Sequence record: PP047752
DNA length: 64,000 bases
Reading direction: 5' to 3' (one strand)
Origin: Escherichia phage KEP2
In this document: one piece after another, positions 1 to 64,000 of the stretch
Layout: each line of letters opens with the position of its first letter
Numbering within the stretch: position 1 is the first letter of the stretch
Made by a program: the position numbers and the translations under genes
Notes under the pieces: generated by a model
Told to the model about the DNA's origin: nothing
Seen by the model: only the letters and a program-made list of their open reading frames with translations
Databases searched by the model: none

Positions 1-3109
<3,109 letters not shown>

Positions 3110-3110
<1 letters not shown>

Positions 3111-4579
3111 TGGCAGGATTAACTACAACAGGATTACAAACTCTAAGATATCAGGAAATTTTTGATAATATCAAATCAAGACTTCTTAGAGATATTTCAC
3201 CCAACCTTGACGTTTCTGAAGATAGCCAATTAGGACTCTTCCTAGCTTCAATTGCAAGGTCTTTAGCAGATACTCATGAGATTCTATCAGAAATCTACGA
3301 TGGGGGTACAATTGATAAGGCTGAAGGCTTTAACCTTGATGATATCACAGCTTTAAATGCGGTATACAGATATGTTGCTCAGGCAACAAGAGGCCAAGTT
3401 GAGTTTACTGGAACGACTGGTGCTACCATTCCTTCAACAACAAGATTAAGAAGTACTGCCGGAAACATCTTTTACCCAGTTAATAATATTACCCTTACTC
3501 CATCATATTGTGTTGAAGCTATTCTTGAAGTTAACTCTTTACGAACTGATGCAGATTATGTTATTATTATTGATAACGTCATTTTCTCATATAAACCAAC
3601 CTCATCAGACACAATCACCACGCTTCTAACAAAATTATCAGAAGCTATTAATGGTGGTATTGTAGCAAAAGCAGAAGTCATTAATGATGGAGCCGCACTA
3701 AGAGTCTATAAAGACGAGGGCGATATCATTGCAAGAACAAACCCTATGGTTGTCACTGCAACAACGTTTCTGACCTTTACAAAAATTACAACTATTTCAG
3801 ATGTAGTAGCTGAAGAGGTTGGTGCTACCCCTGCTTTGGCTGGTACGCTTATTGAGATTGAGACAACTGTTGATGGTCTTGACAGTATTTATAACAGGTA
3901 TGACTTAACAACTGGTAGAAACGAAGAAACTGACACAGAACTTAGACAGAGATATTTAGAGTCCTTAGCAGTTACTGGTGTAGGGACTTTAGATGCAATT
4001 GTAGCTGCTGTTAAAAGAGTTCAAGGTGTCTCAGATGCTTCAGGTGTTGAGAATGATACTGAAGAGACAAGCTCAGAAGGTCTTCCACCAAAATCTTTTA
4101 AGATTGTTGTAGTTGGTGGTCAAAATGATAATGTTGCTCAAGCAATCTGGGATACAAAACCTGCTGGTATTAGGGCTTATGGCTCAATTTTTGGTACAGC
4201 CCATGATTTAGGTGGTTTGGCACATAATATTTATTTTAGCAGACCAACACCAAAATACGCATTTGTTAAAGTCTCTTACTCTTTATATGATGAAGAAAAC
4301 TTGACAATCCCTGAAGAGGATATCAGAGACAGCATTGTACAAGGTATTAATGCCTACGGAAGAACTCTTAAGGTTGGTAATGATGTTATTCCTAATAGAA
4401 TCTATGGGTATATCTATGACGTAATTAAAGGTATTGAGATTAATGAGGTTAAAGTAGCCTTATCAAACAGCCAATCAGTTCCACCTAGTGATGGGCAGTA
4501 TACTACAGCAAGAATTACTGTTGACGGTGACCAATATACTGTTTGGGAAAGCAGCCAGTATACTATCACTAAGGAGTAA
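3110..4579 (+). CDS. putative baseplate J-like protein
   Basis: 489 aa in conserved baseplate gene order before tail fibres. Confidence 0.4.
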
Positions 4580-4581
4580 TA

Positions 4582-5436
4582 ATGTTTGAGAAGATTGATA
4601 GTGTTTATTACAAAACACTTGATGAAAGGACTGTAACACAGTTTAAAGATAAATTTATCTATACAAGTATCTTGAAAGCAATCACTGATGAATTACAAAC
4701 TCTAGAGGATGTTTGCTGGCAGATGCACACGGAGAGAAATATCAGAACGTCAGTAGGCCAACAACTTGATAATATTGGCTCACTGATTAAAGTTCCTAGA
4801 CCTTTAGGTGCAGATGATGAAACATATAGGGCTATGCTTTATATTCAAATCTTCCTAAGACGCTCTGACACTACTCCAACATTCTTGCAAAAAGCAATTA
4901 TGACACTATATGGTGCAACTTTCTCTCAGATTTTTGAGCATATTACTCCTAAGACTGGTGGCATTGTTATCCGTATCAACACTAGAAAAAGCGTTCTAGA
5001 TGCTGCATATACACTGTCAAAGATTTCTGCAACAACTACTGGTTCCGCTGTTATCTTAAGAGATGTTACTTTAAATGGAACCGCTTGGACACCTGTAGAG
5101 GTTGCTGATTCATCACTTGCTATTGTTGATGATAAAGAGAACTGGTTTGTAACTGATGCTAACAGAGGTCTTGTCACGAATAACACTGGTGGCTCTCTGG
5201 AGTCCAACTTAGTAGGTAGTCTTGCAGATGCTGGTGTTATTGATGGTTACTTTAGGGTTGACAGAACAGCAAACTCACAGAGTGATGATTATATGACTGT
5301 AGATAGGTCCAATAATAGTGGCTATTTCATCGTTGGTAAAGAAGCTATTGCAGGTGGTGCATACGGAGTCATGGCTGAGGTTGCACAAATTGTCAAAGGC
5401 AGAAAAGATAAATCACAACAAGAAGGAAATTCCTAA
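4582..5436 (+). CDS. putative baseplate/tail-fibre-associated protein
   Basis: Position between J-like gene and tail fibre genes. Confidence 0.3.
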
Positions 5437-5738
5437 TGGCAGTTTTAAATTGGTCTACAAATGAGGTGGACACTGACGGTAATCAGTTAAAAGTCTTACC
5501 ACCAACAGAAGTCCAAGAGACAGGTCTTTTAAAGGGTGAACCTATGGGTAGGCAATGGTTCAACTATATTATCAACTACCTACTGAATAAAGTAAACGGT
5601 ACTGTTGGTGAAGTTCGCTCATATGCAACTCAGCAACCAGATTTAGTAGCCAATGGCTGGAAACTGATTAAGTCTGAGACAGGTACTGCAACAACAAGTA
5701 CAAAGAACCTTTACACATATGAATATGTAGGAGCTTAA
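5436..5738 (+). CDS. hypothetical protein
   Basis: 100-aa ORF coupled to flanking structural genes. Confidence 0.3.
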
Positions 5739-5740
5739 TA

Positions 5741-6916
5741 ATGGCAGTCGGTGAAATTCAAATTAGTGCCTTGCCACAAGCGGCCTTACCAGTTGATTTA
5801 AGTGATATCTTCCATCTTAAGCAAGGTGTTGAGGATAAAAGATGTACGCTTGAACAGTTGTTAGCACCTCACGCATCTTTGAGGAATAATCCTCATGGTG
5901 TAACCAAATCGCAAGTGGGTCTTGATAATGTTATTAACTCTCTTCAATTAGTTGCAGCTAATAACTTGTCAGACATTGTGAATGTTGCTGAGGCAAGAGC
6001 AAATCTACAAATTATGTCGTCAGAGGAAGTGAATAACTTAATTCAACAACATATTGACGACAAAAGTAACCCACACAATACGACGAAAGCACAGGTCGGT
6101 TTAAGTAATGTTCAGAACTGGACAACATCTAATCTGTACAATGAAGATGCTGATAAGTATGCTACCGCGAGAGCAGTGAATAATTTATACAAAGCTATCC
6201 AAGCATCATATCCAGTAGGGACTATTCATCTATCTGTTAATTCTGCTAACCCAGCCACTTACTTGCTTTGTGGAGGTACTTGGGAGTTAGTTTCTAGAGG
6301 TAGAGCACTAGTTGGTTATGATACAAATTCTAGACCTGTTGGTTCAACGTTTGGTTCTCAGACTGTAGTATTAACAAATAACAATTTACCAGCACATACT
6401 CACTCTATCTATCTAACAGGTGGTGGTCATACACACTCTGCAAGTGTATCTATCTCTAGTTTTGATTATGGTTCAAAGAGTACATCAACTTTTGACTATG
6501 GTACGAAGGCAACTAACAGTGCTGGTGCTCACACTCACACGTTTAGCGGCACGACAAGTAATGATGGTAACCATAACCATAGAGTACCACTGAGGGGTAA
6601 TGATAGAAGTGGGTCAAATGCTATTACTGCATCTGCTTATGCTGGGATTGATAATAATATGTATACTGATTTAGCAGGTGCTCACACCCATAGCTTCTCA
6701 GGCACAACTGCATCATCTGGTGCTCATAGTCATACTGTTGCAATTGGTGCTCATAGCCACACTGTTAATATTGGTTCACACAGTCATACGGGTACTGTTA
6801 CTGTCTCTAACTCTGAACATACACACTCAGGAACATCCGGTTCTGTTGGTGGTGGTCAAGCTTTCAGTGTTGAGCAGCCATCTTTTGTCGTATATGTATG
6901 GCAGAGAACAGCTTAA
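5741..6916 (+). CDS. tail fibre protein with N-terminal tail-fibre repeats and C-terminal HxH repeats
   Basis: Two copies of NPH..TK.QVGL.NV motif (phage tail-fibre repeat); C-terminal run of AHTHS/GAHSHT/HxH motifs typical of metal-binding fibre tips. Confidence 0.7.
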   Translation: MAVGEIQISALPQAALPVDLSDIFHLKQGVEDKRCTLEQLLAPHASLRNNPHGVTKSQVGLDNVINSLQLVAANNLSDIVNVAEARANLQIMSSEEVNNLIQQHIDDKSNPHNTTKAQVGLSNVQNWTTSNLYNEDADKYATARAVNNLYKAIQASYPVGTIHLSVNSANPATYLLCGGTWELVSRGRALVGYDTNSRPVGSTFGSQTVVLTNNNLPAHTHSIYLTGGGHTHSASVSISSFDYGSKSTSTFDYGTKATNSAGAHTHTFSGTTSNDGNHNHRVPLRGNDRSGSNAITASAYAGIDNNMYTDLAGAHTHSFSGTTASSGAHSHTVAIGAHSHTVNIGSHSHTGTVTVSNSEHTHSGTSGSVGGGQAFSVEQPSFVVYVWQRTA

Positions 6917-16144: not shown

Positions 16145-16381
16145 TCACTCAATAACCGTAGTATGTGATTGACCATTTTTGCCATAACTATAAGATGTTG
16201 TTGTTTGAGAGTTTGGACACCTGACAACAACAATATCTCTGCTTATTGCATCCCCATTTAACTTATAGACTTTGCAATCTTGCATCTCTGGTGGGAGACT
16301 ATAAGAAGCATTTTTGTCCTCGTAAGAGGGATTACAGCCAGATAGAAAGATAACACCAAGCACAATTACTGCTTTCCACAT
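16145..16381 (-). CDS. small lipoprotein
   Basis: Signal peptide with lipobox-like FLSGC; 78 aa. Confidence 0.4.
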   Translation of the reverse strand: MWKAVIVLGVIFLSGCNPSYEDKNASYSLPPEMQDCKVYKLNGDAISRDIVVVRCPNSQTTTSYSYGKNGQSHTTVIE

Positions 16382-42061: not shown

Positions 42062-44428
42062 ATGCGCATGGTAAACGACCACGCAGAAGTGATTAAGAGT
42101 TCAACTTCTTTAGAGACGTCTCAAGCACAGATTACAATGACGCCTGAAATGTTCAGTCTTTTGAGTTCTGGTGTATACACCTTTAAAGAAAGGGCAGTGA
42201 TTCGTGAACTGTCATGTAACGCAGTAGATGCTCAGAAAGAAGCTGGAAAAGAGAATATCCCGTTCCATGTGCATTTGCCTACTCGTTTTGAGCCTTACTT
42301 TGAAGTTCGTGATTTTGGAACTGGATTGACTCATGATAAAGTTATGAGTTTGTACCTAAACTATGGAGCTTCTACGAAGAATGACTCTAATGACTACATT
42401 GGTGCAATGGGTATCGGCTCAAAATCACCATTTGCAATTGCTCAGTCATTCACAGTGTCTAGCTATGTTGACGGTGTTGTTAATAAGTACTCTGTTTATC
42501 TTGAGAATGGTATCCCTCAAGTAACTAAACTGACCACTAACCCAACAAAAGAACCTAATGGTTTAGCTGTACGTGTAGCAGTTGCTGACCACCGTATCTC
42601 AAAGTTCTTTGAAGAAGCTGGTCATGTATACTCATACTTTGCTGTAAAACCAGAAAGTAATATCGAGTATGATGATGTATTAGCAGATATGAATGTCATT
42701 GCCCGTGAAGAAGGTGTTTATGATGCCATGATTCATAAGCAAAGCTGGCGTTCTAGTGGTAACAGGACAGAGTTTAACGTGGTAATGGGTAACATTGCCT
42801 ATCCAGTGAATATGGAAGCATTACTTGGTGATGATTTCTTCAAAGTATTGCCAGAATTTTTCCGTAGGAGCGTAGACCTTGTAAACATATACATGCCTAT
42901 TGGTTCAGTTGCTATCGCAGCTTCTCGTGAAGCATTGCAGATGAATGACACGACAAAAAATGTTATCATCGAGGCTACTAAAAAGATAACTGAAGCAATT
43001 ACAAAGGATGTTATCAAGAAAGTTAACAGTCAACCTACACTCATGGATGCTGCACAGGCTTATGCTGAGTTACGTTTGAACTCACGAGAGATGTTTAATG
43101 CTGTGTGTCCAAAGCTAGAGTGGGGAGGCGTTAAGCTTGATTCTCTGGAAGAAGAATTACTAAACATTCGTCGTGGAATTATCTACGCAGAAGACGGCTC
43201 AGTCATCTATGAACGTGACGGCAAAGGTAATATTAAGGTTGATAGGAACGGAAACAACATCCCTAAAGTAGATTATCTTTATAATCCAGTTGCTTATGTT
43301 AAGTTCAACTCTTTAGAGAGTAAGATTCGTGCAACATCGCTTTCCTACACTCAAGAGGCAAGTATGTTCAATATCTTTGGCGCAATGCGTAAAAGCCAAA
43401 TTGAACAGTTTTTGTTTGTTATAAATGACCGTCGCAATAAAAACGGCACTGAGAAGACTGTAGGACGCAACCAGATTCTACGTGGTGCATGTCGAGACTA
43501 TGCCAGCGAGTCAAGTCTGTTTCACAGATACAATGGTATTGTCTTTGTATTCTCTACTGAGAAAGAGCTAGATGATTTAATCAATCTGCACAAACTTGAT
43601 AAAAGCTTGTTAAAGATTGTGAAGATGTCTGATAAGGAACATCATTATCAGCGTAAAGAAGCTGTAAGAGGTGTTGTAAAACTCTGGAAAGCTGTTCCAG
43701 CAGAAGGTGTAGCTTCATACAAAGAGGTGTCAGAAGACTTAGATACGATTGAAGAGCCTCAGCTTTATATTAAGGCAGTAGGTGACACAGTTGATGGCGA
43801 ATGTTTTTGCTCATCTCCAGAAGATGTAGCTAAGTCAGTTGCCAATGTCATTGAAAAGACAGTCTATGTTTTCCGAAAAGCAAATTGGAAAAAGATACCA
43901 GAAGACTGGATTGAAGTAGATGAGAAGCTCTTGAACGACAGCTTAACTGATGTTCACTGGATTAATCATAACAGGTATATGACACGTATCTATATGAATG
44001 GTGTCCTTGACCTTACAAGCAGTTGGATTATTGCCAGAAACTTTACGTTCAATAACAGGAAGATTTCTCGTGGTTATTGTTATTCACGAGATACAAACAA
44101 AACTATCTTCTTAGAAGGTAATGAAGATACTGTTGAGGCAATGTTTGGTAAAATCCAATACGTTGCTGCACCGTTTGCATACACTTACACTATTAGCGTG
44201 TTGCAAGATTTGAAAAGGTGTCTTGACAATGATACAAAGCTTTACAAGAAAATTAAGAAAGCTGGTGACCGTATGGTCATTAAGGTGACAAACTATCTTT
44301 CAAAAAGAAAACAAGAAAACTTCTTGCTTTCTCATTTAGATTGGAATAAAGTGTCACCCATCGAAGTGAGTAAGTTCTTAGGCTTTGATGTGAAGTGTGT
44401 TCCAGAAGGGACTACAATTTACGATTAA
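42062..44428 (+). CDS. rIIA: rIIA-like protein with GHKL (Bergerat-fold) ATPase domain
   Basis: N-box ELSCNAVDA, G1 box VRDFGTGLT, G2 box GAMGIGSKS; 788 aa, followed by rIIB-sized gene. Confidence 0.55.
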   Translation: MRMVNDHAEVIKSSTSLETSQAQITMTPEMFSLLSSGVYTFKERAVIRELSCNAVDAQKEAGKENIPFHVHLPTRFEPYFEVRDFGTGLTHDKVMSLYLNYGASTKNDSNDYIGAMGIGSKSPFAIAQSFTVSSYVDGVVNKYSVYLENGIPQVTKLTTNPTKEPNGLAVRVAVADHRISKFFEEAGHVYSYFAVKPESNIEYDDVLADMNVIAREEGVYDAMIHKQSWRSSGNRTEFNVVMGNIAYPVNMEALLGDDFFKVLPEFFRRSVDLVNIYMPIGSVAIAASREALQMNDTTKNVIIEATKKITEAITKDVIKKVNSQPTLMDAAQAYAELRLNSREMFNAVCPKLEWGGVKLDSLEEELLNIRRGIIYAEDGSVIYERDGKGNIKVDRNGNNIPKVDYLYNPVAYVKFNSLESKIRATSLSYTQEASMFNIFGAMRKSQIEQFLFVINDRRNKNGTEKTVGRNQILRGACRDYASESSLFHRYNGIVFVFSTEKELDDLINLHKLDKSLLKIVKMSDKEHHYQRKEAVRGVVKLWKAVPAEGVASYKEVSEDLDTIEEPQLYIKAVGDTVDGECFCSSPEDVAKSVANVIEKTVYVFRKANWKKIPEDWIEVDEKLLNDSLTDVHWINHNRYMTRIYMNGVLDLTSSWIIARNFTFNNRKISRGYCYSRDTNKTIFLEGNEDTVEAMFGKIQYVAAPFAYTYTISVLQDLKRCLDNDTKLYKKIKKAGDRMVIKVTNYLSKRKQENFLLSHLDWNKVSPIEVSKFLGFDVKCVPEGTTIYD

Positions 44429-44507: not shown

Positions 44508-45617
44508 ATGACTACTAAAACTAAAGCACAGATTGACGCAGAAATTTACAAACTGGTTAAAGAAGGTAAGCTGACTAAAACAGCTATTGCACAGAAGTTC
44601 AATACTTCAACCCGTTCAGTTGGTCGTGCTGTAGAGCGTCATGAAGCAACCTTAAAAGGTAAGAAAAAGGCAACTTCTAAGCCAGCTAAGAAGACTCTAA
44701 AGCAAGTTGCTAAGTCAGTTAAAAAGAAAGCTGGAAAACCAGTTGAAAAGGTTGTTAAAGACACTGTACAGAAAGTTCCAGTAAATAAACTGCATGAAGC
44801 TATGCAGAAAGATGACAAGATTGAGTACATGATTACTGGTGACTCTGTAATTATGACTTACGGTTCAGAATCTGAAATTGTTGAGTCTACTCATCCGAAC
44901 TATCAAGAGATTGTAGTTCATGTTGTGAAAGGTGAGTTCAAGAAAGCTTTCGAACTGATGAACATTCGTAAATCTATCGAAAACTTCACTCAGGGTGCTA
45001 TCACAATCAAAGGTGACAAGCTATTCTACGGTGCTGTTGAGATGCGTTCTACTCTGGTTGACCGTATCCTTCACATGATGAAGACTGGTGATAAAGGTTT
45101 TGAACGACTTGTAATGTTCTTCGAAAAACTGATGGAAAACCCATCTAAAGATTCTGTAGAACAACTTTGGGGATTCGTATCTCACCTTGATGTTGAAATT
45201 GATGAAGAGGGTTACATCATTGGTTGGAAGAAAGTCTCTACTCGTGAAGGCAAGCTGGTTGACTCTCACACCTACAAAGTACCTAATGATTTGGGTAACA
45301 TTGTAGAGATGCCACGTTGGATGGTTGATAACAACCGTAACGTGACTTGCTCTCAGGGTCTTCATGTTGGTGCTTGGGATTATGTTCGTTGCTTCTCAGG
45401 TGATACAATCCTGAAGGTTCGTGTCCATCCACGAGATGTTGTATCTGTTCCGACTGATTACAACGATATGAAGATGCGTTCATCCCGTTATGAAGTTGCA
45501 GCAATCGTTGATAATCAACGTAAAGTGCTGGAAGCATGGGATGGTAAGACTGAAGCTTTGCATGTCATCGTTGGCACTGCTGGAGAACTCATCTCCCAAC
45601 GTAAACGTGAAATCTAA
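44508..45617 (+). CDS. rIIB: rIIB-like protein
   Basis: Assigned mainly by position after rIIA-like gene and size (369 aa). Confidence 0.4.
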   Translation: MTTKTKAQIDAEIYKLVKEGKLTKTAIAQKFNTSTRSVGRAVERHEATLKGKKKATSKPAKKTLKQVAKSVKKKAGKPVEKVVKDTVQKVPVNKLHEAMQKDDKIEYMITGDSVIMTYGSESEIVESTHPNYQEIVVHVVKGEFKKAFELMNIRKSIENFTQGAITIKGDKLFYGAVEMRSTLVDRILHMMKTGDKGFERLVMFFEKLMENPSKDSVEQLWGFVSHLDVEIDEEGYIIGWKKVSTREGKLVDSHTYKVPNDLGNIVEMPRWMVDNNRNVTCSQGLHVGAWDYVRCFSGDTILKVRVHPRDVVSVPTDYNDMKMRSSRYEVAAIVDNQRKVLEAWDGKTEALHVIVGTAGELISQRKREI

Positions 45618-45632
45618 TAAGTAATTTCTTAA

Positions 45633-45660
45633 AAGGCTGCTTCGGCGGCCTTTTTTATTT
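45633..45660 (+). terminator. intrinsic terminator
   Basis: AGGCTGC-ttcg-GCGGCCT followed by TTTTTTATTT. Confidence 0.5.
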
Positions 45661-45717
45661 GTATTTTGTGCAGAGTGCTGTATAATTGTTGTCACGATAA
45701 ACTAAACAGGAGAACCA

Positions 45718-46266
45718 ATGAAGAAGTTGATTCTAGGTTTGTGCTTAATGTTTACAGCACACTTATCTTATGCAGTTGACTGCCCAGAGCTATCAATTAG
45801 CCAAAAAGTAAACATGCTAAAAGCTTACCAGTATGGTGAGAATAATATGGGTAAAGGTTGGGGTATCACTCTAGCTGCTATAGCCTTACAAGAGTCAGAG
45901 TTAGGTCTGAAGGTAGAGAATAAAAAGACCCATGACTATGGTATTTTCCAGAATCACTTGAAGACTGTTGTAAAGCGTAACAAAATCAGTCCTAATGTGG
46001 CTAAAAAGAAACTCTTAAAAGATTTTGACTATGCTGCAAAGGAAACACACAAAGAGCTTGAGTTTTGGGCGAAGGTACATGGTCAACCAAAGTCAAAGAA
46101 GACTTTACAAAAAGTTTTAGCATCATATAATGCTGGGTATTCGTACAAAATACCTAAAGCTAAGAAATACTCTCAAGATGTCTATAACAATATGAAAGTT
46201 ATTGCTCAATGTGAATTTGCAACAAACATTTCTAAGGTAAATCATGAAAAAATTAAGAAAGTCTGA
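45718..46266 (+). CDS. secreted protein, possible lytic transglycosylase-like
   Basis: Signal peptide MKKLILGLCLMFTAHLSYA; ALQESELG ... DYGIFQ resembles SLT catalytic ES...GLMQ pattern; weak. Confidence 0.35.
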   Translation: MKKLILGLCLMFTAHLSYAVDCPELSISQKVNMLKAYQYGENNMGKGWGITLAAIALQESELGLKVENKKTHDYGIFQNHLKTVVKRNKISPNVAKKKLLKDFDYAAKETHKELEFWAKVHGQPKSKKTLQKVLASYNAGYSYKIPKAKKYSQDVYNNMKVIAQCEFATNISKVNHEKIKKV

Positions 46267-46939
46267 TGAAGTACTGTGTCATGCTTACGACTTGCATCCT
46301 CATGAGTTAGGTCTTGATTCCTGTGTATGGACTCCAGAACAGTGCAGGGATTTTGAAGATACTGCAAGAGAAGTTGTATGTTCACTTGAAGAGTTCCACA
46401 CATCAGAACCAATTGTGAACGTTGTGGACAAAGAGACTGTACAATCTATAGGTGTAAGACGTGACAGCTTAGTCATAGTCAATAAAGACCTTGTAGAAAA
46501 AGGTAACCTTATCTTAGCAGACATTGATGGTGTTCTTACAAATTTTAATCACGAAGATTACTCCACAGAGTTGACTGATGGGTCATTTTCGCAGTACACT
46601 AATCTTCTTGACTCTGTAAGAGCAAAACCAACGTATGTTTTTAGTATTATTGATGCAATTGCTAATCATGCTGCCATTGGACTCTTGACAGCAAGAGGTG
46701 AATCTCAGAGAATACCTACTGAGATGTTTTTAAGGCATAACATAGAGCATGACTACATGCTTTTTATGCGTGGTTTTGGAACTAACTCTATAAGTGCAGA
46801 AAGTTTGAAAGTCAGGATGATTCAGTCTTGCATTCTGCCTTACTTTAATATAGTATGTTTTATAGAAGATACAGAGAAGAATGTTCAGAAGGTAAACCGA
46901 ATCCTTCCACACATTAAAACCATGTTAGTTAAACATTGA
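46244..46939 (+). CDS. hypothetical protein, possible HAD-like hydrolase
   Basis: ILADIDGVL resembles HAD motif I (DxDGxL) but lies ~90 aa from N-terminus. Confidence 0.3.
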   Translation: MKKLRKSDEVLCHAYDLHPHELGLDSCVWTPEQCRDFEDTAREVVCSLEEFHTSEPIVNVVDKETVQSIGVRRDSLVIVNKDLVEKGNLILADIDGVLTNFNHEDYSTELTDGSFSQYTNLLDSVRAKPTYVFSIIDAIANHAAIGLLTARGESQRIPTEMFLRHNIEHDYMLFMRGFGTNSISAESLKVRMIQSCILPYFNIVCFIEDTEKNVQKVNRILPHIKTMLVKH

Positions 46940-46950
46940 GAGAAAAACTT

Positions 46951-47415
46951 ATGAACAATATCATTACGGTAGCACTGGACGATACGACAAACAAATCTGT
47001 AGTAGTTCGTAAAATGATTCAAGGTAACTTTGAAGGTAAAATTTTTCGTGCTGTTAATGTAAAAGCTGATGGCAGTATTCGTGAATATCGTGCATTGTTG
47101 AATGTTAAAAAGCACGTAAAAGGTGCTGGTTCAACGACTGCACACAAAGAAAACCTGATGACTATTTATGATATGGGTAAGGCTTCAGAGTTAGGTGCTG
47201 AAGGTATCGTTAAAGAAGGTGCTCCGTATCGCTCTTTCAATCTGGAAACTACTCTTATGCTTTCCTTTACAAGTGGTTCTAAAACAATCACTTACCTCTT
47301 TACTGATGCTGCAACGGTATCTGCTATCAAGGATAGCACTGTCAAAGCTGGCGTAGTTGCTGCTGCAAAAGCTTCTTCGATGGCTGCAAATATCCTTGCT
47401 AAAGTCCTCGGTTAA
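46951..47415 (+). CDS. hypothetical protein
   Basis: ORF-track start TTG; ATG at 46951. Confidence 0.3.
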   Translation: MNNIITVALDDTTNKSVVVRKMIQGNFEGKIFRAVNVKADGSIREYRALLNVKKHVKGAGSTTAHKENLMTIYDMGKASELGAEGIVKEGAPYRSFNLETTLMLSFTSGSKTITYLFTDAATVSAIKDSTVKAGVVAAAKASSMAANILAKVLG

Positions 47416-47426
47416 GGTTAAGATAC

Positions 47427-47450
47427 AGGCTCCTTCGGGAGCCTTTTTCA
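47427..47450 (+). terminator. intrinsic terminator
   Basis: AGGCTCC-ttcg-GGAGCCT followed by TTTTT. Confidence 0.55.
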
Positions 47451-47467
47451 TTTCAGGAGATTGTTAA

Positions 47468-47815
47468 ATGACATTTAAAGAGTTCTGTCAAGCCACTTTC
47501 ATAATTGTTTTCTTAGTTGGAGCAGGTGTCTGGGGAGGATACTCTTACAGAGACTATCAAGTTGCTGAAGCTGAGTTAAATAATGAGAAACTAATAAGTG
47601 TTGCTAAAGATGCTTATCAGGAAGGTTTAGCCACACTCAGCGCCAATTACAAAAATGATTTGAAAGATGTGCTTGCTAAGAATAAGCATACAAAAGAGGT
47701 ACTAACGTATGAAAAGACTAAGCCAGAGTTTTATAATGTTTGTGTTACTGATAATTATGTCAGGGTGTTCAACGAACAAAGTGAACAGTACATTCAAAAA
47801 CTCCCAAGTAAGTGA
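47468..47815 (+). CDS. putative i-spanin (Rz-like)
   Basis: N-terminal TM helix FIIVFLVGAGVWGG then periplasmic helical domain; contains overlapping lipoprotein ORF. Confidence 0.4.
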   Translation: MTFKEFCQATFIIVFLVGAGVWGGYSYRDYQVAEAELNNEKLISVAKDAYQEGLATLSANYKNDLKDVLAKNKHTKEVLTYEKTKPEFYNVCVTDNYVRVFNEQSEQYIQKLPSK

Positions 47816-47978
47816 GAGTGACAAGTACACTCAAGAAGAGTCAAGATTCACTGTCAAAGGTAATACTGGAAGTGATGTGGCAGCAGCCCTTGAATTTTAT
47901 CGTGATGGTTTTTACCAGTGCACAATCAAAGCTAATAACCTTATTGATATGATTTTATTAGGAAACAAACAGCAATGA
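47709..47978 (+). CDS. putative o-spanin (Rz1-like lipoprotein), overlapped architecture
   Basis: Starts inside preceding gene in another frame; signal peptide with lipobox-like IIMSGC. Confidence 0.4.
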   Translation: MKRLSQSFIMFVLLIIMSGCSTNKVNSTFKNSQVSESDKYTQEESRFTVKGNTGSDVAAALEFYRDGFYQCTIKANNLIDMILLGNKQQ

Positions 47979-49692: not shown

Positions 49693-50478
49693 ATGGGTAT
49701 TGTAAAAATCATCAATGGGGATATCTTCTCCGCATTTGATAAAGGTAAGTTTGATATCATTGGTCACGGTTGCAACTGTATGAACTTAATGGGTGCAGGT
49801 ATCGCTGATAAGATTTCTAAACTTTACCCAAAAGCATATGAGACCGATACAGAAGTTTATCTGTATGCAGGTGGTATAGGCCACAAACCCTGTGAAAATT
49901 TACTAGGCAATTTCTCTGTAGCACGTTTAGAACAAGGCCGTATAGCTAACCTTTACACTCAGCTTAAGACTGGTAAAGATGCCCGATATAGTGCTTTAGA
50001 GTCATCTTTGAAACAGCTTAACAGATACTGTGAAGTCAATCAGTTGAAGAAAGTTGGGTTACCTATGATTGGTGCAGGTATCGGTGGACTAGACTCTCAA
50101 GCCGTCACAGTCATCATTAATCAGGTGATGAAGAGTGTAGATGTGTATCTGTATGTCTATGAAGGAGAGATGTACCACAAGTTACGCTCAGGTTGGAAGA
50201 ACTACTGTGAACCAGAATACTTTGCAGGTGTAGTAGTATTCACTAATGATGCAGTTACCCTCTTCAGACGAAGAAAAGGCAAGATACATCAAAGTAACCC
50301 TCCGGTTGAAAAGATGTCTCTAAGTAACGCTCTAGTTACCCACCTGTCGAAGAGCAATCACAGAATTGCAGTAACATTTGGCAGTGATGCAGATACATAT
50401 ATCTATGCAAGAACTGATGAGGATGTTGAGGAAATTTTCTCTTCACCGGAAGTAACCTTCTTAGACGCAAAGAACTAA
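49693..50478 (+). CDS. macro-domain-like protein (ADP-ribose binding/processing)
   Basis: NGDIF...DIIGHGCNCMNLMGAGIADKI ... VGLPMIGAGIGGLD parallels macro-domain GDIT...IVNAAN..GGGV ... FP.IS.G.YG pattern. Confidence 0.5.
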   Translation: MGIVKIINGDIFSAFDKGKFDIIGHGCNCMNLMGAGIADKISKLYPKAYETDTEVYLYAGGIGHKPCENLLGNFSVARLEQGRIANLYTQLKTGKDARYSALESSLKQLNRYCEVNQLKKVGLPMIGAGIGGLDSQAVTVIINQVMKSVDVYLYVYEGEMYHKLRSGWKNYCEPEYFAGVVVFTNDAVTLFRRRKGKIHQSNPPVEKMSLSNALVTHLSKSNHRIAVTFGSDADTYIYARTDEDVEEIFSSPEVTFLDAKN

Positions 50479-60494: not shown

Positions 60495-61028
60495 CTATAA
60501 TTGTAGGTTGCATTCTTTACTTACCTCTTCAAGTTTAACCTCAGAGTCCTTAAGTCGTTTCTTATGAACTCTGAATCTCATTAGTGCAATGATGATACCA
60601 ACTAAAGGAACAGCATACAAGTACCAAACTTCATATACCTTTGCAGTAATCTGCGTAATGGTCAAGTCTTGAGCTATGTAACTGATTGCTGATACTGCCA
60701 GTAATGTTGCTAAGAAAAATGCCAGTAACATTACTGTACTTAAACAACCTCTGGCATGGTGTTCATGCTTAATGCACTTATTCTTTTCGTCAACAACCCT
60801 ATTGTAGTCGTTTGTAAAGTCTCTGTAGAAAGCTTTCAAGTATTCTTGACTGTAGCCTTCAAAGCAACCTGTACCGTACCAATAATCACCACCAAAATGT
60901 GCTATGATACCAGTATCTCCGTTTGGTTTAGTTACTCTCAAAGATGTGTGATGACGAGTATCTTGATAGTCTATTTTGTATCTTTCTTCGTAAATCATTT
61001 TCCAATCCCTCTCAATCGTTTGTTCCAC
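60495..61028 (-). CDS. membrane protein
   Basis: Two C-terminal hydrophobic helices (LSTVMLLAFFLATLLAV; VPLVGIIIALM). Confidence 0.35.
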   Translation of the reverse strand: MEQTIERDWKMIYEERYKIDYQDTRHHTSLRVTKPNGDTGIIAHFGGDYWYGTGCFEGYSQEYLKAFYRDFTNDYNRVVDEKNKCIKHEHHARGCLSTVMLLAFFLATLLAVSAISYIAQDLTITQITAKVYEVWYLYAVPLVGIIIALMRFRVHKKRLKDSEVKLEEVSKECNLQL

Positions 61029-63345: not shown

Positions 63346-63810
63346 TTACTTTGGGTATACACTGTCAAGATAAATGTCAGCTTCCATTCTACGTCTGTTT
63401 TTCAGACCGTTTGAAGTGACCTTCTTGCCTTTGACTGTAACCTTGTTCCACCACTGCATAGCTTCTGCACAACCTACCTTATTACCAGCATTATGGCGCT
63501 TGATAAATGTAGAATCCTGCATAGCTGTGATACCGATGTTGTATGTTTCACTTACAAGTGCATCGAACTCATTCTGAGAAGTTGGAGCCTTGATAGCTTT
63601 ATTCACCGCTGCAACGAACTTTTCAACATCTGCGAGAAGATACTGTTCAGCTTGCTCAGCAGTAATTTTCATACCCATCTTAACAGGTTTTCCGTCAATA
63701 CGGATTGTACCATACCCGATTGTTGGGATTCCGGCAGAGTCTTCGTAAGCCTCTAACTTCAGACCTTCAAAGAACTTAATAGCTTCTAAACCTTTTCTTG
63801 AGAGTTGCAT
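63346..63810 (-). CDS. endolysin, GH24 lysozyme (T4 e-like muramidase)
   Basis: N-terminal EGLKLEAYEDSAGIPTIGYG matches catalytic Glu/Asp region of T4-type lysozymes. Confidence 0.8.
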   Translation of the reverse strand: MQLSRKGLEAIKFFEGLKLEAYEDSAGIPTIGYGTIRIDGKPVKMGMKITAEQAEQYLLADVEKFVAAVNKAIKAPTSQNEFDALVSETYNIGITAMQDSTFIKRHNAGNKVGCAEAMQWWNKVTVKGKKVTSNGLKNRRRMEADIYLDSVYPK

Positions 63811-64000
63811 TATGCCTCCCCTGTTGGGTTAACTGTAACTGTTGCTGCATTAGAAGTAACAGAACCCCCAGCACCAGTAACTACACAAGTGTAGCTTCCT
63901 GCATCAGCAGCAGTTGCACCTTCTTTGGTGTAAGTTGCAGCAGTTGCGTCTGGGATGACTTCCTCACCTTTCTTCCACTGATAACCTGTTGCACCAGTTG
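63810..64000 (-). CDS. partial gene (C-terminal end) encoding Ig-like domain protein
   Basis: Open frame to window edge; translation ...DAGSYTCVVTGAGGSVTSNAATVTVNPTGEA* resembles bacterial Ig-like fold; stop overlaps endolysin start by 1 nt. Confidence 0.4.
   Translation of the reverse strand, partial: TGATGYQWKKGEEVIPDATAATYTKEGATAADAGSYTCVVTGAGGSVTSNAATVTVNPTGEA

What the first reader, a model, noticed from the sequence alone, without database searches (positions are those of the whole stretch)
45718..47978. Overlapped spanin-like pair and a signal-peptide SLT-like protein located 15 kb from the endolysin
47468..47815 (TM plus periplasmic helix) contains, in another frame, 47709..47978 (lipoprotein signal), the classic overlapped i-spanin/o-spanin architecture. 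The GH24 endolysin is instead at 63346..63810 on the opposite strand. Upstream, 45718..46266 encodes a secreted protein with an ES...GIFQ lytic-transglycosylase-like motif. A split lysis system, or an additional secreted cell-wall enzyme, would be unusual.
Basis: partly seen in the sequence, partly recalled or inferred. Interest (0 to 1): 0.4.

Follow-up and report, generated by a model that had tools for sequence, protein, structure and literature searches.

The report
Known Felix O1-type spanins plus Vs.1-like transglycosylase
This stretch of a Felix O1-like phage carries an already catalogued pair of overlapping outer-membrane-disruption (spanin) genes, plus a secreted cell-wall-cutting enzyme of the widespread T4 "Vs.1" family; having lysis genes scattered around the genome is normal for this group and for T4.

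Summary
The window is a Felixounavirus, 97% identical to phage AYO145A. ORFs 47468-47815 and 47709-47978 form an overlapped i-spanin/o-spanin pair. Kongari et al. 2018 list the same 115-aa/89-aa pair with a 107-nt overlap for Felix O1, and the Mushroom and Mijalis records annotate it. I confirmed dual coding from codon-position substitution patterns. The TMD, the lipobox Cys and the periplasmic cysteines are conserved in three distant phage groups. Homologs sit in canonical holin-endolysin-spanin cassettes in a P2-like Yersinia phage and a Klebsiella siphovirus. The "split" lysis system is not unusual: the 2010 Felix O1 paper and the 2015 Mushroom paper describe it as T4-like. ORF 45718-46266 is a signal-peptide GH23/SLT-fold protein with an invariant catalytic Glu. 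It belongs to the T4 Vs.1 family (phrog_600), which occurs in more than 2,100 phage records, and its SLT similarity was published by 2006. Its biological role has not been tested. In other phages the gene lies among early and nucleotide-metabolism genes, so its closeness to the spanins here is probably incidental. Interest is low.

The parts
45631..45654 (+). Intrinsic terminator after rIIB. It separates rIIB from the SLT-like gene.
   Evidence: 10-bp stem with 5 GC pairs followed by a T-run. AYO145A annotates a terminator at the equivalent position.
45659..45686 (+). Candidate sigma-70-type promoter for the SLT-like gene: TTGTAT, 16-nt spacer, TATAAT (perfect -10 hexamer at 45681-45686).
   Evidence: Read from the sequence. 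AYO145A annotates the equivalent site as a promoter with 3 mismatches. It fell below the threshold of the scan. This is a consensus match only.
45718..46266 (+). Vs.1-family secreted GH23/SLT-like lytic transglycosylase, 182 aa.
   Evidence: phrog_600 at E 2e-57, the same PHROG as T4-type Vs.1 (E 2e-68). 32% identical to RB3 Vs.1 (E 2e-16) and 45% to phiEa21-4 gp6 'Vs.1'. All 14 family members hit PF01464. AF2 pLDDT 84.6. Foldseek top hits are goose-type lysozymes and lytic transglycosylases.
45718..45774 (+). Predicted Sec signal peptide, residues 1-19 (MKKLILGLCLMFTAHLSYA | VD).
   Evidence: Rule-based reading: n-region KK, 13-residue h-region, small residues at -3 and -1. pLDDT is below 50 for residues 1-19. 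152 of 168 family representatives have the same kind of N-terminus. No SignalP was available.
45892..45897 (+). E59-S60, the catalytic Glu motif (SLT motif I).
   Evidence: E59 is invariant and S60 at least 90% conserved across 122 representatives that share at most 50% identity. It aligns with the catalytic region of EtgA.
45940..45951 (+). G75-I-F-Q78, SLT motif II (GLMQ-like).
   Evidence: G75 is at least 90% conserved. Q78 is invariant in the closer set.
46126..46137 (+). Y137-N-A-G140, SLT motif III (AYNxG).
   Evidence: Y137 and G140 are invariant and N138 at least 90% conserved.
47427..47444 (+). Intrinsic terminator immediately upstream of the spanin genes.
   Evidence: 7-bp stem with 5 GC pairs followed by a T-run. 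AYO145A and Mijalis annotate it. No promoter-like site lies between it and the i-spanin start.
47468..47815 (+). i-spanin, 115 aa: N-terminal TMD (about residues 6-24), mostly helical periplasmic domain, periplasmic Cys92.
   Evidence: phrog_1152 'Rz-like spanin' at E 1.7e-41. 100% identical to the i-spanin of Mushroom. Equivalent to Felix O1 p014 in the Kongari 2018 tables. TMD and Cys analysis.
47709..47978 (+). o-spanin, 89-aa precursor in the +1 frame: lipoprotein signal, lipobox MSG|C20, Ser at +2, 70-aa mature part, periplasmic Cys71.
   Evidence: phrog_4180 at E 9e-51 and phrog_456 'Rz-like spanin' at E 6e-5. Listed as the 89-aa OOS of Felix O1 by Kongari. Annotated o-spanin at this length in Mushroom and Mijalis.
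47709..47815 (+). 107-nt dual-coding overlap: the i-spanin C-terminus and the o-spanin signal peptide and lipobox.
   Evidence: Divergence of 10-13% here against 22-28% in the flanks, with a switch of the fast-evolving codon position across it.
63346..63810 (-). GH24 soluble endolysin (T4 e-like / Felix O1 gp35-like), unlinked to the spanins.
   Evidence: PF00959 at E 2.5e-40. Annotated endolysin or lysin in relatives.

Best explanation
The region carries two separate, previously described envelope-acting functions of a Felix O1-like myovirus.

(1) 47468-47978 encodes an overlapped two-component spanin. The i-spanin is anchored in the inner membrane by its N-terminal TMD. The o-spanin is exported, lipidated on Cys20 and sorted to the outer membrane (Ser at +2). 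Their periplasmic C-terminal regions bind each other, probably as disulfide-linked homodimers through Cys92 and Cys71, so the complex spans the periplasm through the peptidoglycan mesh. Once the unlinked holin (beyond the end of the window) lets the unlinked GH24 endolysin (63346-63810) destroy the wall, the complexes are freed and fuse the inner and outer membranes, which completes lysis.

(2) 45718-46266 encodes a Sec-exported, soluble periplasmic GH23 lytic transglycosylase of the T4 Vs.1 family, with E59 as the single catalytic acid. It is probably transcribed early by host RNA polymerase. It most likely performs limited peptidoglycan remodelling during infection and is not the lysis enzyme.

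Shown: ORFs, motifs, fold, homology, dual coding and genomic contexts. Inferred: topology, lipidation, disulfides, membrane fusion, enzyme activity, expression timing and the biological role of the transglycosylase.
For: Identity of the phage: 97% nucleotide identity to Felixounavirus genomes.

Spanins:
- PHROG matches to Rz-like spanin families.
- The same 115-aa/89-aa pair with a 107-nt overlap is listed as 'ovl' for Felix O1 and wV8 in Kongari 2018.
- The Texas A&M Center for Phage Technology (CPT) records Mushroom and Mijalis annotate the same ORFs as i-/o-spanin.
- TMD, +1-frame lipoprotein, Ser at +2 and one conserved periplasmic Cys per partner are kept in phiEa21-4 and phiEco32. The Yersinia phage keeps the MSGC|S lipobox.
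- Dual-frame purifying selection.
- Homologs of both partners directly follow a holin (PF04550, E 6.5e-39) and an M15 endolysin in P2-like phage YenM_324. They also follow holin-lysozyme-membrane protein in siphovirus Carvaje.
- Dispersed lysis genes are documented for Felix O1, Mushroom and T4.

Transglycosylase:
- All 14 family members hit PF01464, best E 8e-12.
- The family profile hits EtgA (E 2.4e-4) and goose lysozyme in the PDB.
- Confident model, pLDDT above 90 over the core. Foldseek returns almost only GH23 enzymes and phage SLT-domain proteins at TM about 0.7.
- E59, Y137 and G140 are invariant in 122 diverged representatives.
- A signal-peptide-like N-terminus occurs in about 90% of representatives.
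- T4-type Vs.1 is in the same PHROG. The similarity of vs.1 to SLT is published (PMC1524935).
Against: - No experiment on the Felix O1-type spanins or on any Vs.1 homolog turned up in the searchable literature.
- The window protein itself scores 18.8 bits against Pfam SLT, below the gathering cut-off of 21.3. As a single sequence it finds nothing in the PDB.
- Foldseek E-values against the PDB are weak (6.5e-3 at best, TM about 0.5).
- The mature o-spanin has no proline and is longer than lambda Rz1. It resembles T4's o-spanin in style but not in sequence.
- A strong terminator sits just upstream of the spanin genes and no recognisable promoter follows it, so their transcription timing is unknown.
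- Signal-peptide and lipoprotein calls are rule-based; no dedicated predictor was available.
Confidence: 0.85

Rival explanations
1. The SLT-like protein is a second, secreted endolysin that takes a direct part in lysis. Together with the nearby spanins it would form a holin-independent or backup lysis module, which is the reader's 'split lysis system'.
For: It is a muralytic fold with an intact catalytic Glu. It is exported independently of a holin. It lies 1.2 kb upstream of the spanins throughout Felixounavirus, Mooglevirus and Kolesnikvirus. Some records call it 'putative lysin'. Nolan et al. 2006 suggested 'some role in cell lysis'.
Against: The phage already has a canonical GH24 endolysin. 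In T4-type phages, KVP40 and Ackermannviridae the homolog is far from the spanins and lies among early, nucleotide-metabolism genes. It has a short cleavable-type signal rather than a SAR (signal-anchor-release) domain, so it would be exported in active form from the time it is made, and a potent lysin made that way would cause premature lysis. Two terminators and two unrelated genes separate it from the spanins.
Confidence: 0.12
2. The TMD protein and lipoprotein pair is not a spanin but another envelope function, such as superinfection exclusion or receptor blocking (as with the T5 Llp or Cor-type lipoproteins).
For: There is no experimental test of this spanin family. The genes lie in an early-looking region next to rIIA/rIIB, behind a terminator. 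The o-spanin lacks the proline-rich character of lambda Rz1. The lipobox pattern alone is not statistically rare.
Against: Homologs of both partners occupy the spanin slot of canonical lysis cassettes in two unrelated phage types. The overlapped gene architecture, partner-specific conserved cysteines and mostly helical periplasmic i-spanin domain fit the two-component spanin definition. No other spanin candidate is annotated in this phage group.
Confidence: 0.04
3. The 45718-46266 product is a T4 RegB-like endoribonuclease, as several GenBank records annotate it.
For: It is labelled 'endoribonuclease, T4 RegB-like' in Mushroom, 'protein RegB' in moki and 'RegB domain-containing' in HY01.
Against: BLASTP against RB3 RegB gives E = 20. 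Pfam and NCBIfam show no RegB signal. In T4-type genomes regB is the separate gene immediately upstream of vs.1, which probably seeded the error. The fold and motifs are GH23.
Confidence: 0.01

Closest known systems
Felix O1 p014/p015 spanin pair, with its counterparts in wV8, Mushroom and Mijalis (Kongari et al. 2018 spanin database, 'overlapped' class)
   Same: Same family, lengths (115 and 89 aa), 107-nt overlap, lipobox and position downstream of rIIB. The i-spanin is 100% identical to Mushroom's and a few residues different from Felix O1's.
   Different: Nothing of substance. Many PGAP-type records truncate the o-spanin to 65 aa by starting at GTG 47781, downstream of the lipobox Cys.
Phage T4 PseT.3 / PseT.2 two-component spanin and the T4 dispersed lysis system (e, t, rI, spanins unlinked)
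   Same: The spanin genes are unlinked to holin and endolysin and lie in an early-type region one or two genes from a PseT-like gene. The o-spanin is relatively long.
   Different: No detectable sequence similarity (E 15 and 8.3). The T4 genes are 'separated' rather than overlapped. T4 has 0 and 2 periplasmic cysteines (i and o), against 1 and 1 here.
Lambda Rz/Rz1 and P2 LysB/LysC
   Same: A type II inner-membrane protein plus an outer-membrane lipoprotein encoded in the +1 frame of the same DNA. The overlapped architecture is that of P2 LysB/LysC. Periplasmic cysteines are available for homodimer disulfides.
   Different: Rz1 is fully embedded, proline-rich and about 40 aa when mature. This o-spanin extends 163 nt beyond the i-spanin stop, has no proline and is 70 aa when mature. 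The Felix-type pair is not inside a lysis cassette.
Phage T4 Vs.1 (phrog_600; KVP40.0279.1 'transglycosylase SLT domain protein')
   Same: Same PHROG, same length (about 180 aa), the same signal-peptide-like N-terminus and the same three SLT motifs. 32% identity.
   Different: The Felix-type proteins carry a co-occurring Cys22/Cys165 pair that T4 Vs.1 lacks. The genomic neighbours differ: rIIB and a PNK-like gene here, regB and vs in T4.
Specialised lytic transglycosylases of secretion systems (EtgA, and by family knowledge IpgF, IagB and VirB1), and goose-type lysozyme / Slt70-type GH23 enzymes
   Same: Small single-domain exported GH23 proteins with ES, G-x-x-Q and YNxG motifs. EtgA is the best PDB sequence match (E 2.4e-4). 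Goose lysozymes and lytic transglycosylases are the top structural matches.
   Different: Only remote similarity (15-20% identity, TM about 0.5). There is no associated secretion apparatus. It is phage-encoded, and no partner or substrate context is known.

Membership tests
Two-component spanin (i-spanin + o-spanin) | i-spanin: a single N-terminal TMD with the bulk of the protein periplasmic and largely helical. | tested here: met
   Best hydrophobic window at residues 6-24 (KD 1.75) and none elsewhere. Kongari's tables give 58 of 88 periplasmic residues as helical for the Felix O1 protein. Topology itself is inferred.
Two-component spanin (i-spanin + o-spanin) | o-spanin: a signal peptidase II (lipoprotein-type) signal with a lipobox Cys, and no Asp at +2, so it is sorted to the outer membrane. 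| tested here: met
   MKRLSQSFIMFVLLIIMSG|CS fits the PROSITE-type pattern, with Ser at +2. This is conserved in phiEa21-4, phiEco32 and YenM_324. No LipoP or SignalP was available.
Two-component spanin (i-spanin + o-spanin) | The genes are adjacent, with the o-spanin embedded in, overlapping or directly following the i-spanin. | tested here: met
   107-nt overlap in the +1 frame. Both frames are under purifying selection.
Two-component spanin (i-spanin + o-spanin) | At least one periplasmic cysteine, for intermolecular disulfides (507 of 528 known systems). | tested here: met
   Cys92 in the i-spanin and Cys71 in the o-spanin, both conserved across distant homologs.
Two-component spanin (i-spanin + o-spanin) | Association with lysis genes. 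| tested here: met
   Not linked in this genome. Homologs lie in holin-endolysin-spanin cassettes in YenM_324 and Carvaje.
Two-component spanin (i-spanin + o-spanin) | Required for outer-membrane disruption; complements lambda Rz/Rz1 defects. | not testable with these tools
   This needs genetics. No published test of this family turned up.
Family 1 lytic transglycosylase / GH23 (Pfam SLT PF01464) | Catalytic Glu in an E-S motif at the end of the first core helix. | tested here: met
   E59 is invariant and S60 at least 90% conserved in 122 representatives. It aligns to the EtgA 'WNESK' region.
Family 1 lytic transglycosylase / GH23 (Pfam SLT PF01464) | Motifs II (G-L-M-Q-like) and III (A-Y-N-x-G). 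| tested here: met
   G75-I-F-Q78 and S-Y137-N-A-G140.
Family 1 lytic transglycosylase / GH23 (Pfam SLT PF01464) | The score reaches the Pfam gathering threshold. | tested here: not met
   18.8 bits against a cut-off of 21.3 for the window protein. More distant family members pass: all 14 hit at E up to 0.01, best 8e-12, and some carry precomputed PF01464.
Family 1 lytic transglycosylase / GH23 (Pfam SLT PF01464) | Lysozyme-like alpha-helical fold. | tested here: met
   AF2 pLDDT 84.6. Nearly all of the top 40 PDB matches are GH23-type enzymes at probability up to 1.00, though with TM only about 0.5. Phage SLT proteins match at TM 0.66-0.74.
Family 1 lytic transglycosylase / GH23 (Pfam SLT PF01464) | Produces 1,6-anhydroMurNAc products from peptidoglycan. 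| not testable with these tools
   This needs biochemistry.
T4 Vs.1 family (phrog_600) | Full-length match to the family profile, and reciprocal similarity to T4-type Vs.1. | tested here: met
   phrog_600 at E 2.1e-57 over residues 1-170. RB3 Vs.1 is in the same PHROG at E 2.1e-68. Pairwise E 2e-16.
T4 RegB endoribonuclease (label used in some records) | Sequence similarity to RegB. | tested here: not met
   BLASTP E = 20. No family hit.

The most novel reading that the evidence does not exclude
The Vs.1-family exported lytic transglycosylase has an invariant catalytic Glu and a signal peptide across about 1,300 sequence clusters of large virulent phages. Yet it is always encoded away from the lysis genes and has never been characterised. 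It could have a dedicated, non-redundant early role in the periplasm. Examples would be opening the peptidoglycan mesh so that spanin or other trans-envelope complexes can assemble, reshaping the sacculus for a larger burst, or interfering with superinfecting phages. That would make it a new class of phage 'early periplasmic effector' rather than a lysis accessory.
Probability: 0.2. Interest if true: 0.5.

Novelty: already known. Interest (0 to 1): 0.12.

Why it matters
It matters little for discovery. The spanin pair, the unlinked endolysin and the T4-like dispersed lysis layout of Felix O1-type phages are all published, and the SLT similarity of Vs.1 was noted two decades ago.

The practical value lies in annotation hygiene for phages that are widely used in Salmonella and E. 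coli biocontrol:
- Many deposited genomes truncate the o-spanin so that it loses its lipobox.
- Many label the transglycosylase 'RegB' or 'hypothetical'.
- Many call a phosphatase-only protein 'polynucleotide kinase'.

The one open biological question is what an actively exported, strictly conserved muralytic enzyme does early in infection by T4-like, Vi1-like and Felix O1-like phages.

Tried and rejected
- Single-sequence phmmer of the SLT-like protein against the PDB found nothing. A family profile was needed.
- NCBIfam gave only sub-threshold noise for all five proteins.
- I tested whether the Felix-type spanins are homologous to T4 PseT.3/PseT.2. They are not. The shared proximity to a PseT-like gene is therefore at most loose synteny, and the gene order is reversed.
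- I tested whether the PNK-like protein resembles T4 PseT. There is only weak similarity around the HAD DxDGxL motif (E 0.13).
- I tested whether the lipobox motif alone is significant in this window. It is not: 3 observed against 1.9 expected.
- I looked for the Mushroom-type class III holin in the window. It is absent (tblastn best E 1.4), and by synteny with Mushroom it should lie beyond position 64000. The two-TMD protein at 60495-61028 (phrog_4343, unknown function) is not supported as a holin.
- I rejected the 'RegB-like' annotation.
- Citrobacter phage KMM4 could not be used for the frame analysis, because its i-spanin reading frame is broken near the N-terminus in the deposited sequence.
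- Literature searches for any functional study of Vs.1 found none.
- I did not use the second structure-prediction job on the spanins. A single-chain model would not test the complex.
Full report
**What the window is.** The 5-kb stretch around the finding is 97% identical over 97% of its length to Escherichia phages AYO145A, C600M2 and CL1. It matches 276 phage records, nearly all Felix O1-like myoviruses (Ounavirinae, Felixounavirus). The local gene order on the + strand is as follows.

| Coordinates | Gene |
|---|---|
| 42062-44428 | rIIA |
| 44508-45617 | rIIB |
| 45718-46266 | SLT-like gene |
| 46244-46939 | HAD-type 'polynucleotide kinase' |
| up to 47415 | protein of unknown function |
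| 47468-47815 | i-spanin |
| 47709-47978 | o-spanin |
| from 47975 | small genes of unknown function |

**Checking the observation.**
- The 115-aa product of 47468-47815 has a single hydrophobic segment at residues 6-24.
- The 89-aa product of 47709-47978 is in the +1 frame. It starts with MKRLSQSFIMFVLLIIMSG|C, followed by Ser at +2.
- The two genes share 107 nt, and the second runs 163 nt past the first one's stop. 'Overlapped' is therefore the right term.
- An AAGAGG ribosome-binding site precedes the internal ATG by 9 nt.
- The endolysin at 63346-63810 (-) matches Pfam Phage_lysozyme at E 2.5e-40.
- The 182-aa product of 45718-46266 has a Sec-type N-terminus and the motifs E59-S60, G75-I-F-Q78 and Y137-N-A-G140.

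**Is it more than chance?** The lipobox pattern by itself is not. A start-anchored scan finds three such ORFs in the window, against a mean of 1.9 in shuffled sequence. Conservation settles the matter.

Against two Mooglevirus genomes (Sf14 and Mijalis), substitutions behave as follows.

| Region | Where substitutions concentrate | Counts in the three pairwise comparisons |
|---|---|---|
| Upstream of the overlap | codon position 3 of the i-frame | 27/53, 37/59, 21/28 |
| Downstream of the overlap | codon position 3 of the o-frame | 30/46, 28/41, 17/25 |

Total divergence from the window falls to 10-13% within the overlap, against 22-28% on either side. Both frames are therefore translated and constrained.

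The same anatomy recurs in Erwinia phage phiEa21-4 (137-nt overlap) and podovirus phiEco32 (116-nt overlap). Each has an N-terminal TMD, a +1-frame lipoprotein, Ser at +2, an N-x-C-x-[ST]-[DE] cysteine in the i-spanin and a cysteine in the o-spanin. P2-like Yersinia phage YenM_324 keeps the same MSGC|S lipobox.

**What the pair is.** The i-spanin hits phrog_1152 'Rz-like spanin' at E 1.7e-41. The o-spanin hits phrog_4180 (E 9e-51) and, weakly, phrog_456 'Rz-like spanin'.

Two independent genomic contexts support the function.
- In YenM_324 the homologs directly follow a holin (PF04550, E 6.5e-39) and an M15 endolysin.
- In Klebsiella siphovirus Carvaje they follow holin, lysozyme and a membrane protein.

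The pair is also already in the reference spanin census. The supplementary tables of Kongari et al. 2018 list Felix01 (NC_005282) as 'ovl', with an i-spanin p014 of 115 aa at 5330-5678 and an o-spanin of 89 aa at 5571-5841. The overlap is 107 nt, and wV8 is listed likewise. The Texas A&M Center for Phage Technology (CPT) records Mushroom and Mijalis annotate the same two ORFs at the same lengths, and Mushroom's i-spanin is 100% identical to the window's. The spanin part of the finding is correct and already known, although I found no experimental test of this particular family.

**Is a split lysis system unusual?** No.
[quoted passage not shown] - In Mushroom's record the holin lies inside the tRNA cluster at about 62 kb, the endolysin at about 70 kb and the spanins at about 84 kb.
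- The Mushroom holin has no match in this window. By synteny it should lie beyond position 64000.

The Felix-type spanins are analogues of T4's, not homologues (E 15 and 8.3). In both phages the spanins lie one or two genes from a PseT-like gene, but the gene order is reversed.

**What the SLT-like protein is.** On its own it scores 18.8 bits against Pfam SLT, just under the 21.3-bit cut-off, and it finds nothing in the PDB. Family-level evidence is clear.
- All 14 aligned relatives hit PF01464, best E 8e-12.
- The family profile finds the type III secretion transglycosylase EtgA (E 2.4e-4) and goose lysozymes in the PDB.
- An AlphaFold model is confident over the folded core (mean pLDDT 84.6, above 90 for 122 residues).
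- Foldseek returns almost only GH23 enzymes: g-type lysozymes, Slt/Cj0843, MltE, MltD and MltF. The probability is up to 1.00, but TM is only about 0.5.
- Foldseek also returns phage SLT-domain proteins at TM 0.66-0.74.

The protein belongs to phrog_600 (E 2e-57), the same PHROG as T4-type Vs.1 (E 2e-68). It is 32% identical to RB3 Vs.1 and 45% to phiEa21-4 gp6, which is annotated as a Vs.1 homolog. tblastn finds the family in 2,140 phage records, including T4-like, Vi1-like, KVP40-like and Felix O1-like phages.

An exhaustive profile search finds 1,302 cluster representatives at 50% identity with E up to 1e-3. Almost all are single-domain proteins of about 160-200 aa. In an alignment of 122 of them, E59, Y137, G140 and Y151 are invariant, and S60, G75 and N138 are at least 90% conserved. 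About 90% begin with a signal-peptide-like hydrophobic stretch, and most exceptions look like mis-called starts. This is an active-looking, exported enzyme family.

The SLT similarity of T4 vs.1 was already published (PMC1524935), and KVP40's copy is annotated accordingly. I found no functional study.

**Are the SLT-like gene and the spanins functionally linked?** Probably not. Their 1.2-kb spacing is conserved in Felixounavirus, Mooglevirus and Kolesnikvirus. Elsewhere the Vs.1 gene sits in other contexts.
- T4-type RB3: between regB and vs, about 74 kb from the spanins.
- KVP40: between nrdC and topoisomerase genes.
- A Kuttervirus: next to a recombination nuclease.

In the window, two strong terminators (45631-45654 and 47427-47444) and two unrelated genes separate it from the spanins.

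A promoter-like TTGTAT-16-TATAAT precedes the SLT-like gene. That suggests early transcription by host polymerase, but it is only a consensus match. No promoter-like site lies between the second terminator and the i-spanin start, so when the spanins are expressed is unknown.

**Most likely mechanism.**

*Spanins.* The i-spanin sits in the inner membrane and the lipidated o-spanin in the outer membrane. Their C-terminal periplasmic parts interact across the peptidoglycan. When holin and endolysin remove the wall, the complexes fuse the two membranes. The sequence anatomy, homology and context are shown. Lipidation, disulfide-linked dimers (Cys92, Cys71) and fusion are inferred from the lambda and T4 systems.

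*Transglycosylase.* It is Sec-exported and cleaved after A19, and it is soluble in the periplasm. It would cleave MurNAc-GlcNAc bonds using E59, for limited wall remodelling rather than lysis. A constitutively exported, potent lysin would conflict with holin-timed lysis, and the phage has its own GH24 endolysin. The fold and motifs are shown. Export, activity and role are inferred. The co-occurring Cys22/Cys165 pair in the Felix-type subfamily fits a periplasmic disulfide, but this was not tested.

**Verdict.** Everything is either catalogued (the spanins and the dispersed T4-like lysis layout) or a member of a long-noted family (Vs.1/SLT). The only open question is the biological role of the Vs.1-type exported transglycosylase. 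Interest is low; novelty is 'already known'.

Noticed in passing
window 47781-47978, against the true start at 47709: Many deposited Felix O1-like genomes (AYO145A RefSeq, C600M2, Sf14 and others) annotate the o-spanin as a 65-aa CDS starting at GTG 47781. That start is downstream of the lipobox Cys20, so the annotated protein has no signal or lipid anchor. The CPT records (Mushroom, Mijalis) and Kongari 2018 use the 89-aa start.
   Followed up: yes
window 45718-46266; Mushroom KP143762 85872-86420; moki MT074478 71522-72139: Several records label the Vs.1/SLT-like gene 'endoribonuclease, T4 RegB-like' or 'protein RegB'. BLASTP against RB3 RegB gives E = 20. The error probably spread from T4-type genomes, where regB is the gene immediately upstream of vs.1.
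   Followed up: yes
window 46244-46939 (+): The 'polynucleotide kinase' (phrog_3970) matches only the C-terminal HAD 3'-phosphatase part of Pnk profiles (for example phrog_505 positions 158-282 of 295). It has a DIDGVL motif, and I saw no P-loop by eye. It is probably a phosphatase only. Similarity to T4-type PseT is marginal (E 0.13).
   Followed up: partly
window 16145-16381 (-): A second small ORF (78 aa) carries a signal peptide and lipobox, MWKAVIVLGVIFLSG|CNPS. It belongs to phrog_902 (unknown function, E 6e-17). It may be a phage lipoprotein, for example for superinfection exclusion.
   Followed up: partly
window 49693-50478 (+); L003 3784-4566; L004 2939-3379: A macro-domain (Tk.4-like / Appr-1-p processing) gene lies directly downstream of the spanin pair in phiEa21-4 and in the unrelated podovirus phiEco32, and 1.7 kb downstream here. 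This linkage of a spanin pair with a macro-domain gene recurs across phage families.
   Followed up: no
L013 (RB3 131340-133420) against window 46244-47978: In both T4-type phages and Felix O1-like phages the spanin genes lie one or two genes from a PseT-like gene, in reversed order, even though the spanins share no detectable sequence similarity.
   Followed up: partly
L009 (Citrobacter phage KMM4) about 2978-3324: The i-spanin reading frame appears broken near its N-terminus in the deposited sequence, and the gene is not annotated there. This is either a sequencing error or a real frameshift.
   Followed up: no
window 60495-61028 (-): This 177-aa protein has two C-terminal hydrophobic segments and is annotated 'membrane protein' in some relatives. 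It lies 2.3 kb from the endolysin and belongs to phrog_4343 (unknown function). It is not the holin annotated in Mushroom, which belongs to phrog_2143 and lies outside the window.
   Followed up: partly
search hits H5, H29, H101: Records named 'Staphylococcus phage SA1' and 'Campylobacter phage A132/A126' carry near-identical Felix O1-like sequence (95-99% identity). These look like mislabelled or contaminated database entries.
   Followed up: no
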